A stretch of 6,065 nt of DNA from Escherichia phage NC28. The DNA lies in sequence record NC_007823.1, one strand, 5' to 3'. The translations under genes and the position numbers were made by a program. Positions within the stretch are counted from its first letter, which is position 1. Each line of letters starts with the position of its first letter. The notes below the pieces were generated by a model. The model saw only the letters and a program-made list of their open reading frames with translations. It had not been told where the DNA came from and made no database searches. Of this stretch, positions 1 through 6,065 are shown piece by piece.

Positions 1-26
1 TTGTTGACTTCTCCCAATCCCTTATG

Positions 27-59
27 AGACTCTTACTTCAACGAATGAAGTAGGAGTCT
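27..59 (+). terminator. Hairpin just downstream of gene H (H stop is at the window end, assuming a circular genome): 13-bp stem (27-39 / 47-59, one G-U pair), 7-nt loop, followed by TCTTTAT. Likely the post-H (TH-like) terminator or mRNA-stabilising hairpin.
   Basis: Read directly: 5' arm AGACTCTTACTTC (27-39), loop AACGAAT (40-46), 3' arm GAAGTAGGAGTCT (47-59). The 3' arm contains AGGAG (52-56), the SD of the ORF starting at 65. The U-tract is weak. Confidence 0.5.
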
Positions 60-64
60 TTATC

Positions 65-433
65 ATGAAGCCCGCTCACCGCTTGACTCATCCGATTCTC
101 GGTTCTTGGTTGTTTAAGTGCCCTGTTTATATCAGTTATGAGCACCTTCATCATGGTCGTCTCATTAAGGTTCGCGCTGTTCGTGATTTATCCCCTCGCC
201 AGCAGCTTATCGCTAACCCTAAAAATTGTTTTGACGTTGTTATTGCTGTGATTGACGTTACTTATTGCTCTGTCACTTATTTTGATTATGAGGCTGAGGA
301 ATATGCCGAGTGTGATTCAGAAACTATGGATAATATCCTTGCTTATGTTAACTCTCCTCACTCCCTTCGCTCTGAGGAGGATTCATCCGTTGATGTTGAC
401 GATATGGCGTGGCTTTATGAAATTGCGGAGTAA
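65..433 (+). CDS. Hypothetical acidic protein (122 aa) in the H-A intergenic region; no recognisable family.
   Basis: ATG at 65 with AGGAG (52-56) 8 nt upstream. T-rich third codon positions match the phage's other genes. C-terminal half is strongly acidic (EEDSSVDVDDMAWLYEIAE tail). Stop TAA at 431-433 lies 3 nt before the next ATG. Confidence 0.5.
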   Translation: MKPAHRLTHPILGSWLFKCPVYISYEHLHHGRLIKVRAVRDLSPRQQLIANPKNCFDVVIAVIDVTYCSVTYFDYEAEEYAECDSETMDNILAYVNSPHSLRSEEDSSVDVDDMAWLYEIAE

Positions 434-436
434 ATC

Positions 437-526
437 ATGGAAACTGTTGTCGGGAAATTTATTGCTTTGGCTGTTGTTGCTCTTATGCTGTATGGAATTG
501 CCCGTTTAATTCGGAGGTTCCCGTGA
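437..526 (+). CDS. Hypothetical small hydrophobic peptide (29 aa, METVVGKFIALAVVALMLYGIARLIRRFP): one predicted transmembrane helix with a basic C-terminus.
   Basis: ATG at 437 with GGAG (427-430) 6 nt upstream. Hand translation gives an uninterrupted hydrophobic stretch then RLIRRFP; stop TGA at 524-526. Too short to appear in the supplied ORF track. Confidence 0.38.
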   Translation: METVVGKFIALAVVALMLYGIARLIRRFP

Positions 527-699
527 AATACTTTAGTCTTGTGGATGAACATTATGCTTATTGCCCTGACACGCGGATTCTGCATATCACTCGCAGTCGT
601 GTTTCTGACCCTCGTTATGAGCGTCGTTTTCTTACTGATGAGGAGCATTTTGAGCTTCTGGATTGGTTGAAAAGCCGTCTGACTTACGTTAATTCTTGA
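523..699 (+). CDS. Hypothetical 58-aa protein with GTG start overlapping the ORF2 stop (GTGA), translation VKYFSLVDEHYAYCPDTRILHITRSRVSDPRYERRFLTDEEHFELLDWLKSRLTYVNS.
   Basis: GGAGG (513-517) lies 5 nt upstream of GTG 523. Open frame to TGA 697-699 verified codon by codon. No in-frame ATG, so the start is uncertain. Confidence 0.33.
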   Translation: MKYFSLVDEHYAYCPDTRILHITRSRVSDPRYERRFLTDEEHFELLDWLKSRLTYVNS

Positions 700-725
700 C
701 AATCTTCTGAAATACCCTCTATATT
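696..725 (+). promoter_or_regulatory. Candidate sigma70 promoter for gene A (PA-like): -35 TTGACA (696-701), -10 TATATT (720-725), 18-nt spacer.
   Basis: Perfect -35 hexamer and a 5/6 -10 read directly, positioned about 35 nt upstream of the A start codon, analogous to phiX174 PA in the H-A intergenic region. The ORF3 stop TGA sits inside the -35 hexamer. Confidence 0.45.
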
Positions 726-755
726 GCCCTCATAGGTTCACTACGAGGGCTTTTT
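726..755 (+). terminator. Terminator-like or leader hairpin: GCCCTC (726-731) / GAGGGC (745-750) stem, 13-nt loop, followed by TTTTT (751-755), immediately before the gene A ATG.
   Basis: Read directly. The 3' arm GAGGG (745-749) is also the likely SD of gene A, 9 nt before ATG 759. Could terminate transcripts coming from the upstream cassette and/or modulate A translation. Confidence 0.4.
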
Positions 756-758
756 CGC

Positions 759-2243
759 ATGGCTACCGAATTGTTTTCTGACGTTGTAAAGGCTACGTGG
801 TCGCATGTCACTGCTAAGCATCCTCATCTTCGTATGGCTGTTCAGGTTGATAACCGTAGCCGTCTTCTTTCTGATTTGGTTTACCAGTTGGAAAAACGCC
901 TTTCCGAAGAGACTCATTTGGATGATGAGACTTATGCCCTTTATGAATCTCAGACTGGCCTTTTGGAAGACCATATGGCACTGGTTCGAAAGTGTGCAGC
1001 CCAACTTGATAATAGTAACACTATAGACCACCGTACCCCGTTGGACCCTGAATGTGTTTTCCTTTTTGAAATGATTTGTCCAGGTGTTCGCTATGGTAAG
1101 GCGCTTAATTCGCTTTGGAGTAAGTATGTCGCTCAATGGCCTGAGAAGTTAATTCGTCAGGAGCTCGACATGGTTAAGCCTTTATCTTTCAAGGATGAGG
1201 TTGCCAAGTACATGGAGAAAATGCAGGAAAAAACACGTAAAAATCGCATGACTCAGAAAGTGATTAATGAGATGCGTATTGCTCACCAAAAAGGCTGGTT
1301 CTTCGTATTTGATACGTTGACACTTGCTGATGACCGTTTGCAGGCGTTTAATGAAAACCCCAATGCTCTTCGTGATTACTTCAGGACTGTTGGTCGAGCT
1401 GTTTTGCGCGCTGAAGGTCGTTCGGTTAAGGATTCCTACAACGACTGCTATCGCTATCTTTGTGTGCCGGAGTTTGGAGGCCAGCACGGCCGTCTTCATT
1501 GGCATGTCGTGCATATGGTGCGGACTCTTCCTTTGGGAAGTCACGACCCTAATTTCGGTCGCAAGGTACGTAATTATCGCCAAATTAACTCGTTCCGTGG
1601 TATGTGGCCTTATGGCTTCACGCAACCGATAGCTGTACGCTATCAACATGATGCTTATTCTCGTAAAGGTTGGTTGTGGCCTGTTGACAAAACAGGAAAA
1701 GCAATGCAGAGTAAGCCGTATCAGGCGGTCGCATGGTATGTGACCAAGTATGTAGCTAAGCAATCTGATCAGCGTCAGAAAGCTATTACCGAGAGACAAA
1801 AAAAATGCAAAAATCCTTTGATGGCAATTTGCTTGAAGAAAGAATTCAGGGTTCGCAGCAGCCGGAAGCTCGGAATGGAGTTACCTTCAATGGTTCACCT
1901 GAGCAACAAGGTCCTTCTGGAACTGAGCAGAATCAGCTTCGATTCCAGCCCGCTCTATCAGATAGTGAAAGAGAACGCCAAAAAGCAATTGAGCTTGAAC
2001 ATCGGCGTAGTGCCTTTGCACGTCATTATGGATGTGCGCCCGCAAGTGAGAAGTATGTTGAAAAATATCCGTCGTTTGATGAAAAAGACACCAGAATTCA
2101 ATTGGCAGAATTCTATCGCTTCAATGACGGTCACCTTAAAAAATGGGGATATTTCTAATGAAGCACGTCAATACATTGTTGATGCAGGAATTACGCCTTT
2201 TGATTTGCGAGCTAAAGCGACTCAAACTTTCGGCGGTAAGTGA
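759..2243 (+). CDS. A: Replication initiation protein A (rolling-circle HUH endonuclease), 494 aa.
   Basis: Long ORF with HUH motif GRLHWHVVH (His codons near 1497-1514) and double-tyrosine motif AWYVTKYVAKQSD (Tyr codons at 1737 and 1749). Central and C-terminal regions align with recalled phiX174 protein A (e.g. GWFxVFDTLTLADDRL, PNALRDYFR, DPNFGRxVRN, WPYG, GWLWPVD). Confidence 0.94.
   Translation: MATELFSDVVKATWSHVTAKHPHLRMAVQVDNRSRLLSDLVYQLEKRLSEETHLDDETYALYESQTGLLEDHMALVRKCAAQLDNSNTIDHRTPLDPECVFLFEMICPGVRYGKALNSLWSKYVAQWPEKLIRQELDMVKPLSFKDEVAKYMEKMQEKTRKNRMTQKVINEMRIAHQKGWFFVFDTLTLADDRLQAFNENPNALRDYFRTVGRAVLRAEGRSVKDSYNDCYRYLCVPEFGGQHGRLHWHVVHMVRTLPLGSHDPNFGRKVRNYRQINSFRGMWPYGFTQPIAVRYQHDAYSRKGWLWPVDKTGKAMQSKPYQAVAWYVTKYVAKQSDQRQKAITERQKKCKNPLMAICLKKEFRVRSSRKLGMELPSMVHLSNKVLLELSRISFDSSPLYQIVKENAKKQLSLNIGVVPLHVIMDVRPQVRSMLKNIRRLMKKTPEFNWQNSIASMTVTLKNGDISNEARQYIVDAGITPFDLRAKATQTFGGK
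1002..1031 (+). other. Viral (+) strand replication origin 30-mer inside gene A; predicted nick between G1008 and A1009.
   Basis: CAACTTGATAATAGTAACACTATAGACCAC matches the recalled phiX174 origin CAACTTGATATTAATAACACTATAGACCAC at 28 of 30 positions; both differences fall in the AT-rich spacer. In frame within A (translated ...QLDNSNTIDHR...). Confidence 0.8.
1212..2243 (+). CDS. A*: Protein A*: in-frame internal restart within gene A, about 343 aa.
   Basis: In-frame ATG at 1212 (MEKMQEKTRKNRMTQ...) preceded by AAGGA/GAGG (1191-1200). It sits at the position equivalent to the phiX174 A* start, about 25 residues before the conserved GWFxVFDTLTLADD. In-frame ATGs at 1221 and 1248 are alternatives. 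Confidence 0.45.
   Translation: MEKMQEKTRKNRMTQKVINEMRIAHQKGWFFVFDTLTLADDRLQAFNENPNALRDYFRTVGRAVLRAEGRSVKDSYNDCYRYLCVPEFGGQHGRLHWHVVHMVRTLPLGSHDPNFGRKVRNYRQINSFRGMWPYGFTQPIAVRYQHDAYSRKGWLWPVDKTGKAMQSKPYQAVAWYVTKYVAKQSDQRQKAITERQKKCKNPLMAICLKKEFRVRSSRKLGMELPSMVHLSNKVLLELSRISFDSSPLYQIVKENAKKQLSLNIGVVPLHVIMDVRPQVRSMLKNIRRLMKKTPEFNWQNSIASMTVTLKNGDISNEARQYIVDAGITPFDLRAKATQTFGGK
1805..2158 (+). CDS. B: Internal scaffolding protein B (117 aa), encoded in an alternative frame inside gene A.
   Basis: ORF in a different frame from A. C-terminus ...DTRIQLAEFYRFNDGHLKKWGYF matches recalled phiX174 B C-terminus (...WRIQPAEFYRFHDAEVNTFGYF). Acidic, Q-rich N-terminal region typical of B. Confidence 0.9.
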   Translation: MQKSFDGNLLEERIQGSQQPEARNGVTFNGSPEQQGPSGTEQNQLRFQPALSDSERERQKAIELEHRRSAFARHYGCAPASEKYVEKYPSFDEKDTRIQLAEFYRFNDGHLKKWGYF

Positions 2244-3085: not shown

Positions 3086-4369
3086 ATGTCAAACGTGCAA
3101 ACTTCCGCAGAACGTATTCCGCATGACCTTTCCCATCTGGTTTTTGATGCTGGCAAGATTGGTCGTTTAAAGGTTGTTTCTTGGACTCCTGTTGTTGCAG
3201 GTGATTCTTTTGAGCTTGATATGATTGGCGCAATTCGCCTTTCTCCGCTTCGTCGTGGTTTGGCTGTTGATAGCCGCGTTGACTTGTTTACTTTCTATGT
3301 TCCTCATCGTCATGTTTATGGTGAGCAATGGATTGATTTTATGAAAGCAGGTGTTGATGCTGCTCCGCTTGCACCTGTTACTTGTTCGCGTGGTTGGGAT
3401 AGCGCCCAGTATTTGGCTACAATTCCGTCCTCTAACCTGAAGGTTCCTAAGTTCCTTCATCAAGGTTATTTGAATATTTATAATAACTATTTTAAAGCTC
3501 CGTGGATGGATGATTTAACTTATGCCAATCCGTCTAATATGGAAGGTGAAGACGTTCGTTTTGGTGTTCGTGCGTGTAACTTGAAAACTATTTGGACTGC
3601 CCCACTTCCGCCGGACACTGAGACTTCTCATTCTATGGAGACTGAGACTAACTCTATTGATATCATGGGCCTTCAGGCCGCTTATGCTCAGCTTCATACT
3701 GAGCAGGAACGTGATTATTTCATGACGCGTTATCGTGATATTGTTAATGAATTTGGTGGTAGTACTTCTTATGATGCGGATAATCGCCCTCTTCTGGTTA
3801 TGCACTCTGAGTTTTGGGCTTCAGGCTATGACGTCGACGGCACCGACCAAAGTTCTCTCGGTCAGTTCTCTGGACGTGTACAGCAGACCTTTAAGCATTC
3901 AGTACCGCGATTCTTCTGCCCTGAGCATGGCACTATGTTCACACTCGCATTGGTCCGCTTCCCGCCGACCCATGAGATGGAGATGCATTACTTAGTTGGC
4001 AAGGAAGATTTAACCTATACTGATTTGGCTTGTGACCCAGCTCTGATGGCCAACCTCCCTCCTCGTGAGGTTAATATGTCTCAGTTCTTCCATTCTGGAA
4101 GTGCTAGTGCTAAGTTTAAGATTGCTGAAGGTCAATGGTATCGTATGCAGCCTGACCGTGTTGCTTTGCCGTATAACTATCTTGATGGTTTTCCGTTCTA
4201 TAGTGCGATTCCATCTGATGATATTAATCATCGTGTTCTGGTTAATACTGATAACTACGATGAGGTTTTCCAGTCTATGCAGCTTGCGCACTGGAATATG
4301 CAGACCAAGTTTAACTGCACCATTTATCGTAATATGCCGACCACTCGCGACTCTATTATGACCTCTTGA
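3086..4369 (+). CDS. F: Major capsid protein F (427 aa).
   Basis: Same length as phiX174 F and extensive identity to the recalled sequence (MSNxQTxAERxPHDLSHL…, FTFYVPHRHVYGEQWI, GYLNIYNNYFKAPWM, WTAPLPP, SIDIMGLQAAYA, SYDADNRPLLVM, ASGYDVDGTDQxSLGQFSGRVQQT, LPTTRDSIMTS). Confidence 0.97.
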   Translation: MSNVQTSAERIPHDLSHLVFDAGKIGRLKVVSWTPVVAGDSFELDMIGAIRLSPLRRGLAVDSRVDLFTFYVPHRHVYGEQWIDFMKAGVDAAPLAPVTCSRGWDSAQYLATIPSSNLKVPKFLHQGYLNIYNNYFKAPWMDDLTYANPSNMEGEDVRFGVRACNLKTIWTAPLPPDTETSHSMETETNSIDIMGLQAAYAQLHTEQERDYFMTRYRDIVNEFGGSTSYDADNRPLLVMHSEFWASGYDVDGTDQSSLGQFSGRVQQTFKHSVPRFFCPEHGTMFTLALVRFPPTHEMEMHYLVGKEDLTYTDLACDPALMANLPPREVNMSQFFHSGSASAKFKIAEGQWYRMQPDRVALPYNYLDGFPFYSAIPSDDINHRVLVNTDNYDEVFQSMQLAHWNMQTKFNCTIYRNMPTTRDSIMTS

Positions 4370-4952: not shown

Positions 4953-5087
4953 AAGGCCACCGCACTCCTGGTTAGATGCCTGCCCAGTGTAGGGTGGACC
5001 GAGCCGTACGGAGATACCCGAGAAACTAGGAACGCGGAAGGCGTTAGCCGCCTTCCCTCCTGCTAAGCCCAAAGGAGACTTTCAGCT
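4953..5087 (+). promoter_or_regulatory. 135-nt structured G-H intergenic region; candidate terminator after G and/or complementary (-) strand origin (primase-dependent ssi). Strong hairpin at 5036-5056 (GGAAGGCG-TTAGC-CGCCTTCC); possible imperfect hairpin 4957-4997; palindrome CCGTACGG at 5004-5011.
   Basis: Hairpins read directly. The spacer is far longer than a terminator plus RBS needs, while the F-G spacer is only 37 nt. My recollection is that in G4 the (-) strand origin is in F-G and in alpha3/St-1/phiK it is in G-H. AAGGAG (5072-5077) is the SD for H. Confidence 0.35.
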
Positions 5088-6065
5088 ATGTTAGGTGCCG
5101 TTGTAGGTGGTATTGTTTCAGCCTTAGCTGGTGGAGCAGCTTCTAAGCTATTTGGTGGCAAGCCTGCCGCTCAAGCCGCCACTGAGTCCTCTGGCCTTTC
5201 TAATGGTCAAGGTGTTATTGGTATGGACCAAGATGCTGGTATTCAGTCAGCTATTCAGGGTTCGAATGTTCCAAATGGTCAGATTCCTGCCCCTACCCAG
5301 ACTGGTGGCGTTATGTCTGACGCTAAAAATATGATTAAGAATGCTGGTAAAGATTTGCTTGATGGTGTTATGACCGCTGGAAGTGACCGCATTAAGCAGG
5401 CATTGGTTGATAAATTGAGTGGTAATAATGCAAAACGACAAGGACAAGCAACCCGTGATTACTTGGCTTCGGCCTTCCCTGAGCTCAACCCGTGGGAACG
5501 TTCTGGAGCTGGTGCTTCCGGTGCCGGATTGGAATCTTCCGGTCAGGACCAACAAAAAGAGTTGATGCGTATGCAGCTGGATAACCAGAAAGATATTGCA
5601 AAGATGCAGATGGATAACAATTTGCAGATTGCTGGTATTCAGTCCGCTACATCTCGTCAGAATACTAAGGACACTGTTTATGCTCAGAATGAAATGCTTC
5701 AGTACAATCAGCGTGAGTCGCAGGCACGCGTTGAATCTATCCTCGCCAACACTAACCTTACGGATAAGCAGGCTACCCATGAAATCATGAGAATGGCTCT
5801 TACCCGTGCTCAGGAAACTGGTCAGCATTTGACTAACTCTCAGATTATGGCATTGGAGAAAAAGGTTTATGCAGAAATCGGAAAAATTAATCAAGATACT
5901 CAAAACGCTCGCTATGGTAGTTCTCAGGTTACTGCTGCGGCGAAAGATGTTACGAATATGATTACTGATGCCACCTCTGGTGCTGCTGATTGGGTTTCCC
6001 AGCAATGGAATTCCCTCTTTAAGGATGGTAAGTCTAATGGTATTCCCCTCAATACCAGAAAATAA
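5088..6065 (+). CDS. H: Minor spike / DNA pilot protein H (325 aa).
   Basis: AAGGAG (5072-5077) 10 nt before ATG 5088. Glycine-rich N-terminus (MLGAVVGGIVSALAGGAASKLFGG), then GIQSAIQGSNVPN, TRDYLAxAFPELNxWER, QKELxxMQLDNQK, IAGIQSATSRQNTKDxVYAQNEML, ENTNL, QNxRYGSS; C-terminal ...FKDGKSNGI...RK. All match recalled phiX174 H. Stop TAA is the last 3 nt of the window. Confidence 0.95.
   Translation: MLGAVVGGIVSALAGGAASKLFGGKPAAQAATESSGLSNGQGVIGMDQDAGIQSAIQGSNVPNGQIPAPTQTGGVMSDAKNMIKNAGKDLLDGVMTAGSDRIKQALVDKLSGNNAKRQGQATRDYLASAFPELNPWERSGAGASGAGLESSGQDQQKELMRMQLDNQKDIAKMQMDNNLQIAGIQSATSRQNTKDTVYAQNEMLQYNQRESQARVESILANTNLTDKQATHEIMRMALTRAQETGQHLTNSQIMALEKKVYAEIGKINQDTQNARYGSSQVTAAAKDVTNMITDATSGAADWVSQQWNSLFKDGKSNGIPLNTRK

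What the first reader, a model, noticed from the sequence alone, without database searches (positions are those of the whole stretch)
1..758. Large H-A intergenic region carries a compact, translationally coupled three-ORF cassette
In phiX174 the H-A spacer is a few dozen nt holding only a terminator and PA. Here it is about 760 nt and contains three + strand ORFs (65-433, 437-526, 523-699), each with a Shine-Dalgarno 5-8 nt upstream and tight coupling (TAA-3 nt-ATG; overlapping GTGA). Their T-rich third-position codon usage matches the core genes. The cassette is bracketed by a post-H hairpin (27-59) and a pre-A hairpin with T5 (726-755). As far as I recall, alpha3-like genomes are annotated with only the 11 canonical genes, so this could be an undescribed accessory module sitting where alpha3-like genomes are longest. 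None of the three products resembles a protein I recognise.
Basis: partly seen in the sequence, partly recalled or inferred. Interest (0 to 1): 0.78.

Follow-up and report, generated by a model that had tools for sequence, protein, structure and literature searches.

The report
Known extra genes in alpha3-like phages
The long stretch between genes H and A of this WA13-like microvirus is a conserved set of small protein-coding genes, already noted in 2006 as reading frames of unknown function; there are at least four, because two tiny membrane peptides are read from the same DNA in different frames.

Summary
ORF1 (65-433), ORF2 (437-526) and ORF3 (523-699), their Shine-Dalgarno sites, the couplings and both hairpins are where stated. 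The window is a complete alphatrevirus genome, 91.7% identical to WA13.

Across 30 distinct relatives the ORFs stay open. ORF1 and ORF3 are under purifying selection (dN/dS about 0.2, shifted frames 1.0 or more). AlphaFold models are confident (pLDDT 89 and 83) with no known structural relatives.

Doubly synonymous sites evolve at the baseline rate (3.0 transition events per site), singly nonsynonymous sites at about 1.0, doubly nonsynonymous sites at 0.06.

Positions 696-758 have the same layout as the whole phiX174/G4 H-A spacer (pA promoter and T_H terminator). The cassette therefore sits at the tail of the late transcription unit.

It is not undescribed. [quoted passage not shown] Phage Lilleven annotates the three ORFs, and a 1980s alpha3 record marks their ribosome-binding sites. 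Function remains unknown; the proteins are orphans restricted to this genus.

The parts
4..9 (+). -35-like hexamer TTGACT (TTGACA in most relatives) 3 nt after the H stop, the same spacing as the pA -35 in G4. There is no good -10, so promoter activity is unproven.
   Evidence: Not reported by the promoter scan.
27..59 (+). Post-H hairpin: 14-bp stem whose 3' arm contains the ORF1 Shine-Dalgarno. Most relatives follow it with T5-6 (terminator-like); in this window the run is TCTTTATC.
   Evidence: -21.7 kcal/mol, z -5.5; 92% paired; pair 35-51 is AU/GU/GC.
65..433 (+). ORF1: 122 aa, 14.1 kDa, acidic (pI 4.9, net charge -10). The N-terminal half is basic and nearly invariant; the middle is variable.
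   Evidence: Open in all genomes. dN/dS 0.20 overall, 0.05 for codons 1-65, 0.43 for codons 66-103. AlphaFold pLDDT 88.7, pTM 0.79. In-frame 96-nt insertion in the L018 lineage.
417..509 (+). ORF2b: 30-aa hydrophobic peptide (MKLRSKSWKLLSGNLLLWLLLLLCCMELPV) in the +1 frame, overlapping the last 5 codons and stop of ORF1 and the first 24 codons of ORF2. Weak or no Shine-Dalgarno.
   Evidence: ATG and stop kept in 30/30 genomes. Site-class rates SS 3.0, SN 0.95, NS 1.0, NN 0.06. Overprinted-type composition, T3 0.16. RBS marked at the equivalent spot in M25640. Retained in divergent L042.
437..526 (+). ORF2: 29-aa single-helix membrane-type peptide (METVVGKFIALAVVALMLYGIARLIRRFP), SD GGAG 427-430.
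   Evidence: Open in 30/30. Two C-terminal forms: 4-nt overlap with the ORF3 start in 29 of 30 genomes, 2-nt gap in ID32. Second codon positions never vary over the first 25 codons in 22 genomes. Nonsynonymous-only-in-ORF2 sites run at one third of baseline. Called as a gene on many contigs and as QBZ71503.1.
523..699 (+). ORF3: 58 aa, 7.2 kDa, four strands plus a C-terminal helix. SD GGAGG 513-517. The start is GTG here and ATG in the other junction form.
   Evidence: dN/dS 0.08-0.19. AlphaFold pLDDT 82.9. Homologues only on ~6-kb alphatrevirus contigs.
554..670 (+). Candidate fifth ORF nested in ORF3 (+1 frame; 38 aa from ATG554 or 41 aa from ATG545; hydrophobic). Inconclusive.
   Evidence: Open in 30/30, but only a weak drop in ORF3-synonymous rate: 1.94 vs 2.33 for doubly synonymous sites (P 0.38) and about 3.2 in the ORF3 flanks.
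696..725 (+). pA-type sigma-70 promoter TTGACA-18-TATATT. The -35 overlaps the ORF3 stop TGA 697-699.
   Evidence: Best promoter-like site in the window, 11/12. Same layout as phiX174 and G4 pA. Deleted in part in NC35.
726..755 (+). T_H-type intrinsic terminator: stem 726-735/741-750 plus T5 751-755. The 3' arm GAGGG is the gene A Shine-Dalgarno.
   Evidence: (covariation UA<->AU at 733/743 in 8 sequences). The pA-T_H overlap in phiX174 is described in preprint 10.1101/2020.03.05.979765.
759..2243 (+). Gene A (context).
5088..6065 (+). Gene H (context). Its stop codon is the last three bases of the window.

Best explanation
The 'H-A intergenic region' of this WA13-like alphatrevirus is a genus-specific accessory gene cassette inserted between gene H and a canonical pA/T_H module (696-758).

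Shown or strongly supported: it encodes at least four proteins.
- ORF1: a 14-kDa acidic beta-rich cytoplasmic protein.
- ORF2 and ORF2b: two roughly 30-aa hydrophobic peptides read from the same 70 nt in two frames. ORF2b is overprinted on ORF2, as E is on D in phiX174.
- ORF3: a 7-kDa alpha/beta protein.

Inferred expression logic:
- No convincing internal promoter exists, so the cassette is transcribed as the 3' tail of late mRNAs that read through the post-H hairpin. These mRNAs end at the T_H hairpin (726-755).
- ORF1's Shine-Dalgarno lies in the 3' arm of the post-H hairpin, so its initiation should be limited by that structure.
- ORF2 and ORF3 are then translated by coupling (TAA-3 nt-ATG; GTGA/ATGA overlap).
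- ORF2b, with little or no Shine-Dalgarno, would be made at low level.
- pA transcripts should start inside the 5' arm of the T_H stem (as at phiX174 position 3962). They would escape termination and expose the gene A Shine-Dalgarno.

Inferred function (low confidence): phiX174 and G4 lack these genes, and St-1 may carry a frameshifted ORF1. The products are therefore most likely non-essential host-interaction factors, comparable in status to protein K. I would guess a cytoplasmic factor with a fast-evolving surface (ORF1 codons 66-103) plus small inner-membrane peptides acting on the envelope (lysis timing or exclusion of superinfecting phage). They are unlikely to be virion or replication components.
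For: Conservation and selection:
- The region is conserved at 81-93% nt identity in all 24-25 alphatrevirus records and on metagenomic ~6-kb contigs, where gene callers find the same cassette.
- ORFs are intact in 30/30 distinct genomes and indels are confined to spacers.
- dN/dS is 0.20 for ORF1 and 0.08-0.19 for ORF3, against 0.96-1.9 in shifted frames.

Dual coding of ORF2/ORF2b (transition events per opportunity):
- SS 3.0, SN 0.95, NS 1.0, NN 0.06, against a baseline synonymous rate of 2.85.
- P = 2e-8 and 9e-10 versus baseline; P = 0.007-0.008 versus the doubly synonymous sites.
- The ORF1 control shows no false signal.

Other coding evidence:
- A junction remodelled in two ways keeps both ORF2 and ORF3 open and switches the ORF3 start from GTG to ATG.
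- An in-frame 96-nt insertion occurs in ORF1.
- AlphaFold models are confident, and the BFVD model of the Lilleven orthologue of ORF1 matches at TM 0.97.
- Codon usage matches the core genes; ORF2b has an overprinted-type profile.

Signals:
- The pA/T_H layout equals that of phiX174 and G4, and the phiX174 transcription start site is annotated at 3962.

Prior literature.
Against: - There is no direct evidence of transcription or translation for any of the ORFs.
- The doubly synonymous class that anchors the dual-coding argument has only 3 sites (9 events).
- ORF2b has at best a GGA about 10 nt upstream, and not even that in this window.
- This window alone carries E13G in ORF2b.
- The post-H hairpin shows little covariation, so its role is inferred from layout.
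- NC35 lacks the pA -10 and the 5' arm of the T_H stem yet is a viable isolate.
- No homology or fold match gives any functional handle, so the functional part is a guess.
Confidence: 0.8

Rival explanations
1. Three genes only. The near-invariance of 411-509 reflects a non-coding signal (an RNA or single-stranded-DNA structure, a protein-binding site, or translation-initiation constraints) superimposed on ORF2, and the +1 frame is open by accident.
For: ORF2b lacks a good Shine-Dalgarno. It has never been called as a protein among 15 billion sequences. Leucine-rich open +1 frames arise easily where third positions are T-rich. Only 3 doubly synonymous sites anchor the test.
Against: - The block folds no better than shuffles (z +0.94), and Rfam finds nothing.
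- Its limits coincide with ATG417 and stop 507-509.
- The stop varies TAA<->TGA but is never lost.
- Common polymorphisms are synonymous in the +1 frame.
- In L042 the part overlapping the diverged ORF1 end changes sequence but keeps the ATG, near-identical length (29 aa) and basic character.
- The control frame shows no such signal.
Confidence: 0.2
2. Five genes: the nested +1 ORF 545/554-670 inside ORF3 is also coding, which would match the 'five conserved reading frames' of Rokyta 2006.
For: It is open with ATG554 in 30/30 genomes. The ORF3-synonymous rate inside it is 1.94, against about 3.2 in the ORF3 flanks. The literature count is five.
Against: The difference from doubly synonymous sites is not significant (P 0.38). 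There is no Shine-Dalgarno. Few mutations could create a stop there, so staying open is weak evidence. I could not read Rokyta 2006 to see which five frames were meant.
Confidence: 0.25
3. The region is non-coding spacer DNA (a regulatory, replication or packaging signal) and the ORFs are chance.
For: Most GenBank records annotate nothing here. phiX174's H-A spacer is purely regulatory.
Against: There is strong third-position bias and dN/dS of 0.05-0.2. No indels occur inside the ORFs. In-frame insertions and start-codon switches occur. Fold predictions are confident. The G4-type complementary-strand origin lies in the G-H spacer instead.
Confidence: 0.02
4. ORF1 is an anti-restriction or anti-defence DNA mimic of the Ocr/ArdA kind, and the cassette is an anti-defence island.
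For: ORF1 carries net charge -10 and its C-terminal half -15.5. It has a variable middle segment (dN/dS 0.43) and a highly divergent allele in L042 within conserved flanks, which is typical of arms-race genes. The alpha3-like phages St-1 and phiK grow on K-12, which has restriction systems (own knowledge).
Against: There is no sequence or fold similarity to any known protein, including Ocr/ArdA-type mimics. The model is beta-rich, unlike the helical known mimics (own knowledge). dN/dS stays below 1.
Confidence: 0.12

Closest known systems
[quoted passage not shown] 2006, as cited by Wichman and Brown 2010, PMC2935103), and hypothetical proteins QBZ71502-QBZ71504 of phage Lilleven
   Same: Same genus, same position between H and A, orthologous sequences (ORF1 78%, ORF3 81-83% identical to Lilleven) and the same three-CDS layout.
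   Different: This window is a new genome (91.7% identical to WA13). The published statement gives no function. I could not check which five frames were meant. ORF2b is absent from protein databases.
Overprinted genes of Bullavirinae (E within D; K across A/C; B within A)
   Same: ORF2b lies in the +1 frame of an older gene, is leucine-rich and hydrophobic because T-rich third positions become second positions, has a weak ribosome-binding site, and depresses the synonymous rate of its host frame.
   Different: It is only 30 aa long and overlaps another tiny membrane peptide rather than a large structural gene. There is no sequence similarity to E or K, and its expression is unproven.
phiX174/G4 pA-T_H module (H-A spacer)
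   Same: Window 696-758 has the same order and spacing: -35, -10, a stem starting right after the -10, the gene A Shine-Dalgarno in the 3' arm, a T-run, then the ATG.
   Different: Sequence similarity of the short modules is not significant (P 0.11-0.14). Here ORF3, not H, ends at the -35.
phiX174 protein K (non-essential accessory membrane protein)
   Same: A small hydrophobic accessory product, absent from the essential gene set and possibly affecting yield (Table 1 of PMC2935103).
   Different: No homology. The status of the cassette proteins as non-essential is inferred only from their absence in phiX174/G4 and a possible frameshift in St-1.

Membership tests
Alphatrevirus-specific conserved ORFs between H and A (Rokyta 2006; Lilleven QBZ71502-4) | Genome is an alpha3/WA13-like microvirus, collinear with the type genomes | tested here: met
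   91.7% identity over 100% of WA13. Gene order is A ... F, G, H.
Alphatrevirus-specific conserved ORFs between H and A (Rokyta 2006; Lilleven QBZ71502-4) | Orthologous ORFs at the same position, open in relatives | tested here: met
Alphatrevirus-specific conserved ORFs between H and A (Rokyta 2006; Lilleven QBZ71502-4) | Identity of the five frames listed in the primary paper | not testable with these tools
   The paper is not held. Only the secondary citation could be read.
Protein-coding gene under purifying selection | dN/dS well below 1 in the proposed frame and about 1 or more in the other frames | tested here: met
   ORF1 gives 0.20 against 1.2 and 1.8. ORF3 gives 0.08-0.19 against 0.96-1.9. 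ORF2 is resolved only through the two-frame test.
Overlapping (overprinted) gene pair | Depressed synonymous rate in the host frame limited to the overlap, with doubly synonymous sites at the baseline rate | tested here: met
   SN 0.95 and NS 1.0 against SS 3.0 and baseline 2.85; NN 0.06. The block limits 411-509 match the ORF. Caveat: only 3 SS sites.
Overlapping (overprinted) gene pair | Both products detected | not testable with these tools
   Needs ribosome profiling, mass spectrometry or reporter fusions.
Sigma-70 promoter plus intrinsic terminator (pA/T_H) | Near-consensus hexamers, and a GC-rich stem followed by a T-run with covariation | tested here: met
   11/12 hexamer matches. Stem 94% paired, with compensatory changes.
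Sigma-70 promoter plus intrinsic terminator (pA/T_H) | Mapped transcript start and 3' ends | not testable with these tools
   No transcript data exist for any alphatrevirus in the sources searched.
G4-type primase-dependent complementary-strand origin | Sequence similarity to the G4 origin | tested here: not met
   The H-A region has no blastn match to G4 or phiX174. The window's G-H spacer 4953-5087 matches G4 3891-4012 at 78%.
Known phage or defence protein families (Pfam, PHROGs, NCBIfam, PADLOC, PDB) | Significant profile or fold match | tested here: not met
Ocr/ArdA-like DNA-mimic anti-restriction proteins | Strongly acidic surface and a matching fold | tested here: inconclusive
   Acidic (net charge -10), but no fold match to any solved structure. 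The activity itself cannot be tested here.
Structured RNA (Rfam) within 395-530 | Family match, or folding energy better than shuffles | tested here: not met

The most novel reading that the evidence does not exclude
The cassette is a self-contained host-manipulation module unique to alphatreviruses. It would combine two orphan proteins with no detectable structural relatives and a pair of membrane peptides encoded in two frames of the same 70 nt. The paired expression of those peptides (one well translated, one weakly) would control something like lysis timing, superinfection exclusion or defence evasion by a mechanism not seen in phiX174 or G4.
Probability: 0.25. Interest if true: 0.65.

Novelty: already known. 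Interest (0 to 1): 0.35.

Why it matters
Microviruses are the textbook minimal DNA phages and are usually described as having 11 genes. One of the three coliphage genera carries four or five more conserved genes that remain uncharacterised twenty years after they were noted. Most reference records, including RefSeq WA13, alpha3, St-1 and phiK, still omit them.

For annotation, the practical result is that these records should carry ORF1, ORF2 and ORF3, and probably ORF2b.

For biology, the genes are small, orphan, apparently non-essential and sit in an easily engineered 6-kb genome. Their function could be settled with a handful of point mutants. The ORF2/ORF2b pair would add another example of overprinting in the family where overlapping genes were first discovered.

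Tried and rejected
1. Complementary-strand origin in the H-A region: rejected. The G4-like origin is in the G-H spacer.
2. Structured RNA as the cause of the invariant block 411-509: rejected (z +0.94; no Rfam hit).
3. Post-H module (1-67) as a sequence duplicate of the pA/T_H module, or a homologue of the phiX174/G4 spacers: local alignments are not significant (P 0.03-0.9). Only the layout is alike.
4. Minus-strand ORFs (702-415, 154-38): intact in only 12-21 of 30 genomes and show no selection signal.
5. Long +1 ORF 138-509 (123 aa in WA13, WA45 and MG945254; marked in the MG945254 record): open in only a minority of genomes.
6. Homology searches found only alphatrevirus orthologues and one divergent allele, P0032. 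Sources searched: Pfam, PHROGs, NCBIfam, PADLOC, PDB sequences, 5.8 billion clustered proteins, a profile search of 1.84 billion representatives, plasmids, and 185,579 species genomes.
8. Literature: Rokyta et al. 2006 and Kodaira et al. 1992 are not held. Other searches found no functional study.
Full report
[quoted passage not shown] It is collinear with phage WA13 and 91.7% identical to it over its whole length. Gene A is at 759-2243, F at 3086-4369 and H at 5088-6065. The finding concerns positions 1-758, between H and A.

**Check of the observation.**
- ORF1 runs from ATG65 to TAA433 (122 aa), ORF2 from ATG437 to TGA526 (29 aa) and ORF3 from GTG523 to TGA699 (58 aa).
- Shine-Dalgarno sequences sit at AGGAG 52-56, GGAG 427-430 and GGAGG 513-517, which is 8, 6 and 5 nt before the starts.
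- The couplings are TAA-ATC-ATG between ORF1 and ORF2, and GTGA between ORF2 and ORF3.
- Third-position T content is 0.54, 0.47 and 0.58 in the three ORFs, against 0.46-0.52 in D, F and H.
- The post-H hairpin (27-59) folds at -21.7 kcal/mol with z -5.5. The pre-A hairpin (726-750, then T5) folds at -14.7 kcal/mol.
- The phiX174 and G4 H-A spacers are 63 and 58 nt, so the size contrast is real.

**Are the ORFs genes?** I collected H-A regions from 14 phage records and from metagenomic contigs. This gave 30 distinct sequences that are 78-93% identical to the window, except that one (L042) has a far more divergent ORF1 segment.
- All three ORFs are open in all 30 sequences.
- The only exceptions in any record are single-base deletions in ORF1 of the 1992 alpha3 sequence and of St-1. 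The alpha3 deletion is absent from the resequenced alpha3 record DQ085810.2. St-1's close relative Lilleven has an intact ORF1.
- All other indels fall in the spacers or at the ORF2/ORF3 junction.
- ORF1 has 49/38/104 variable columns at codon positions 1/2/3 and dN/dS 0.20; the shifted frames give 1.2 and 1.8.
- ORF3 has dN/dS 0.08-0.19; the shifted frames give 0.96-1.9.
- The ORF2/ORF3 junction exists in two forms. One is ...LIRRFP with GTGA. The other is ...LI[S/D/N]R[T/S]L[K/R] with ATGA. ID32 is a third variant, with a 2-nt gap between the ORFs. All keep both ORFs open, and in the second form and ID32 the ORF3 start changes from GTG to ATG.
- One lineage (L018-L020) carries an in-frame 96-nt insertion that adds 32 residues to the ORF1 N-terminus.
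- AlphaFold models are confident. ORF1 has pLDDT 88.7 and pTM 0.79, and is beta-rich with two helices. ORF3 has pLDDT 82.9, with four strands and a C-terminal helix.

**A fourth, overlapping ORF.** ORF2 behaved oddly in the selection test.
- Over its first 25 codons in 22 genomes, second codon positions never vary (0/25). Only 9/25 third positions vary, against 104/122 in ORF1.
- Fine mapping shows a nearly invariant block at about 411-509.
- The block's limits match a +1-frame ORF, ATG417 to stop 507-509. It encodes 30 aa: MKLRSKSWKLLS[E/G]NLLLWLLLLLCCME[F/L]P[V/A].
- Its ATG and stop are kept in all 30 genomes, and the stop alternates between TAA and TGA.

I classified every possible mutation in the overlap by its effect in both frames. 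I then counted parsimony events on a neighbour-joining tree.

| Mutation class | Transition events / opportunities | Rate |
|---|---|---|
| Synonymous in both frames | 9/3 | 3.0 |
| Baseline: synonymous in ORF1 + ORF3 | 490/172 | 2.85 |
| Nonsynonymous only in ORF2b | 19/20 | 0.95 |
| Nonsynonymous only in ORF2 | 26/26 | 1.0 |
| Nonsynonymous in both | 1/17 | 0.06 |

- Against the baseline, the two singly nonsynonymous classes give P = 2e-8 and 9e-10. Against the doubly synonymous sites they give P = 0.007-0.008.
- The same test on ORF1 against its own +1 frame shows no effect (3.08 vs 3.00).
- The block does not fold better than shuffled sequence (z +0.94), and Rfam finds nothing.
- ORF2b has the composition of an overprinted frame (T at positions 1/2/3 = 0.48/0.48/0.16). 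ORF2 has the normal T3-rich profile, so ORF2 is probably the older frame.
- In contig L042 the ORF1 product is only 35% identical to the window's. ORF2b is still present there as a 29-aa ORF from the same ATG. The part that overlaps the diverged ORF1 end has changed in sequence (KWKIAKWKP instead of KLRSKSWKL) but is still basic.
- The old alpha3 record M25640 marks four ribosome-binding sites. One, at the equivalent of window 406-408, can only serve ATG417.
- I rate ORF2b as probably real (about 0.75). The caveats are that only three doubly synonymous sites anchor the test, that it has almost no Shine-Dalgarno, and that this window alone carries E13G.

**A possible fifth frame.** An ORF from ATG545/554 to stop 668-670, nested in ORF3, is open in 30/30 genomes. 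It shows only a weak, non-significant signal. Minus-strand ORFs are not conserved.

**Where the cassette sits.**
- Positions 696-725 (TTGACA-18-TATATT) are the best promoter-like site in the whole window, with 11/12 matches.
- This site is followed at once by the stem 726-735/741-750, a T5 run and the gene A start.
- phiX174 and G4 have the same order and spacing in their entire H-A spacers, with the gene A Shine-Dalgarno in the 3' arm of the stem.
- Logel and Jaschke describe this pA-T_H overlap in phiX174. The phiX174 record places the pA transcription start at 3962, just after the 5' arm.
- The stem here has covariation support: 94% of cells are paired, UA<->AU exchanges occur in 8 sequences, and 0/500 shuffles do as well.
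- So 696-758 is the ordinary pA/T_H module, and the cassette (1-695) lies between H and that module. The ORF3 stop overlaps the -35 hexamer, the position where H ends in phiX174 and G4.
- Sequence similarity among these short modules is not significant; the resemblance is one of layout.
- The post-H hairpin repeats the design: the ORF1 Shine-Dalgarno is in its 3' arm, followed by a T-run (T5-6 in most relatives) and the ATG. A TTGACT/TTGACA hexamer lies 3 nt after the H stop, as in G4. It has no credible -10, and the hairpin shows little covariation.
- The G4-type complementary-strand origin is in the G-H spacer, where 4953-5087 is 78% identical to G4 3891-4012. It is not in this region.

**How it most likely works.**
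- Shown: this is a polycistronic set of at least three, and probably four, protein-coding genes under purifying selection.
- Inferred: the cassette is expressed as the 3' end of late transcripts that pass the post-H hairpin and stop at T_H.
- Inferred: ORF1 initiation is limited by the hairpin that holds its Shine-Dalgarno. ORF2 and ORF3 are translated by coupling. ORF2b is made at a low level.
- Inferred: pA transcripts start within the 5' arm of the T_H stem and so escape termination.

The products:

| Product | Size | Properties |
|---|---|---|
| ORF1 | 14 kDa | Acidic, net charge -10; N-terminal half basic, C-terminal half -15.5 |
| ORF2 | 29 aa | Hydrophobic, basic (pI 10.9) |
| ORF2b | 30 aa | Hydrophobic, basic (pI 9.4) |
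| ORF3 | 7 kDa | Near-neutral (pI 6.3) |

- ORF1 is modular: codons 1-65 give dN/dS 0.05 and codons 66-103 give 0.43.
- ORF1 has a very divergent allele in L042 (35% aa identity), set within flanks that are 77-84% identical in nucleotides.
- phiX174 and G4 do without these genes, and St-1 may carry a frameshifted ORF1.
- My best guess is therefore non-essential host-interaction functions: a cytoplasmic factor with a fast-evolving surface, plus small membrane peptides acting on the envelope. This part is speculation.

**Comparison with what is known.** No family, defence-system or solved-structure match exists for any product.
- Family libraries and PDB sequences.
- A profile search of 1.84 billion representative proteins found only the family itself and P0032.
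- Nothing turned up in plasmids or in 185,579 species genomes.

The cassette itself is not new.
[quoted passage not shown] 2006)".
- Lilleven annotates the three ORFs as hypothetical proteins.
- MG945254 and M25640 carry partial marks.
- Most other records, and a 2026 description of a new alphatrevirus, still list only the canonical genes.
- ORF2b is in no protein database, but it is probably among Rokyta's five frames.

**Verdict.** Novelty: already known, with function still open. Interest is moderate to low (0.35). The value lies in correcting the annotation, in the evidence for the overprinted ORF2/ORF2b pair, and in a set of simple decisive experiments.

Noticed in passing
window 4953-5087 (G-H spacer): 78% identical over 125 nt to the G4 complementary-strand origin and primer region (G4 3891-4012, which lies between F and G there). 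The primase-type minus-strand origin of this genome therefore sits between G and H.
   Followed up: partly
window 454 (ORF2b codon 13): This window alone has G where the other 29 genomes have A. The change is silent in ORF2 (GGG/GGA) but E to G in ORF2b, within the otherwise invariant LLSENLLL motif.
   Followed up: no
L042 820-1209 (Logan SRR20337160 contig): An ORF1 allele (P0032, 129 aa) only 35% identical in protein and 52% in DNA, within flanks that are 77-84% identical. ORF1 looks like a mosaic or fast-evolving locus.
   Followed up: partly
L018 2811-3275, also L019 and L020 (6.2-6.3-kb contigs): ORF1 is 154 aa because of an in-frame 96-nt insertion just after the start. The old SD/ATG region has become coding (ATG to TTC). 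The base of the post-H stem and the T5 run are kept.
   Followed up: partly
NC35 (L013), equivalent to window 703-731: A 29-nt deletion removes the pA spacer, the -10 and the 5' arm of the T_H stem in a viable isolate. How gene A is transcribed there is unclear.
   Followed up: no
St-1 NC_012868 (L009) near window 229; alpha3 NC_001330 (L003) near window 192: Single-base deletions split ORF1. The alpha3 one is absent from the resequenced DQ085810.2, so it is probably a sequencing error. The St-1 one lies in a T4 run and could be an error or a real laboratory loss, which would show that ORF1 is dispensable in culture.
   Followed up: partly
phiK NC_001730 (L008), equivalent to window 699: A to G changes the ORF3 stop TGA to TGG (ORF3 becomes 70 aa) and the pA -35 to TTGGCA. 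It may be an error in the 1990s sequence.
   Followed up: no
window 4-9: TTGACT (TTGACA in most relatives) lies 3 nt after the H stop, the same spacing as the pA -35 in G4, but with no credible -10 downstream. It may be a relic or a weak promoter for the cassette.
   Followed up: partly
P0022 (ENA contig of 761 nt): A 78-aa product fuses the first 20 residues of ORF2 to ORF3. This is either a deletion variant or an assembly artefact.
   Followed up: no
NC29 (NC_007827, 6259 nt): This genome is about 190 nt longer than its relatives, but gene A starts at 762, so the extra DNA is not in the H-A region.
   Followed up: no
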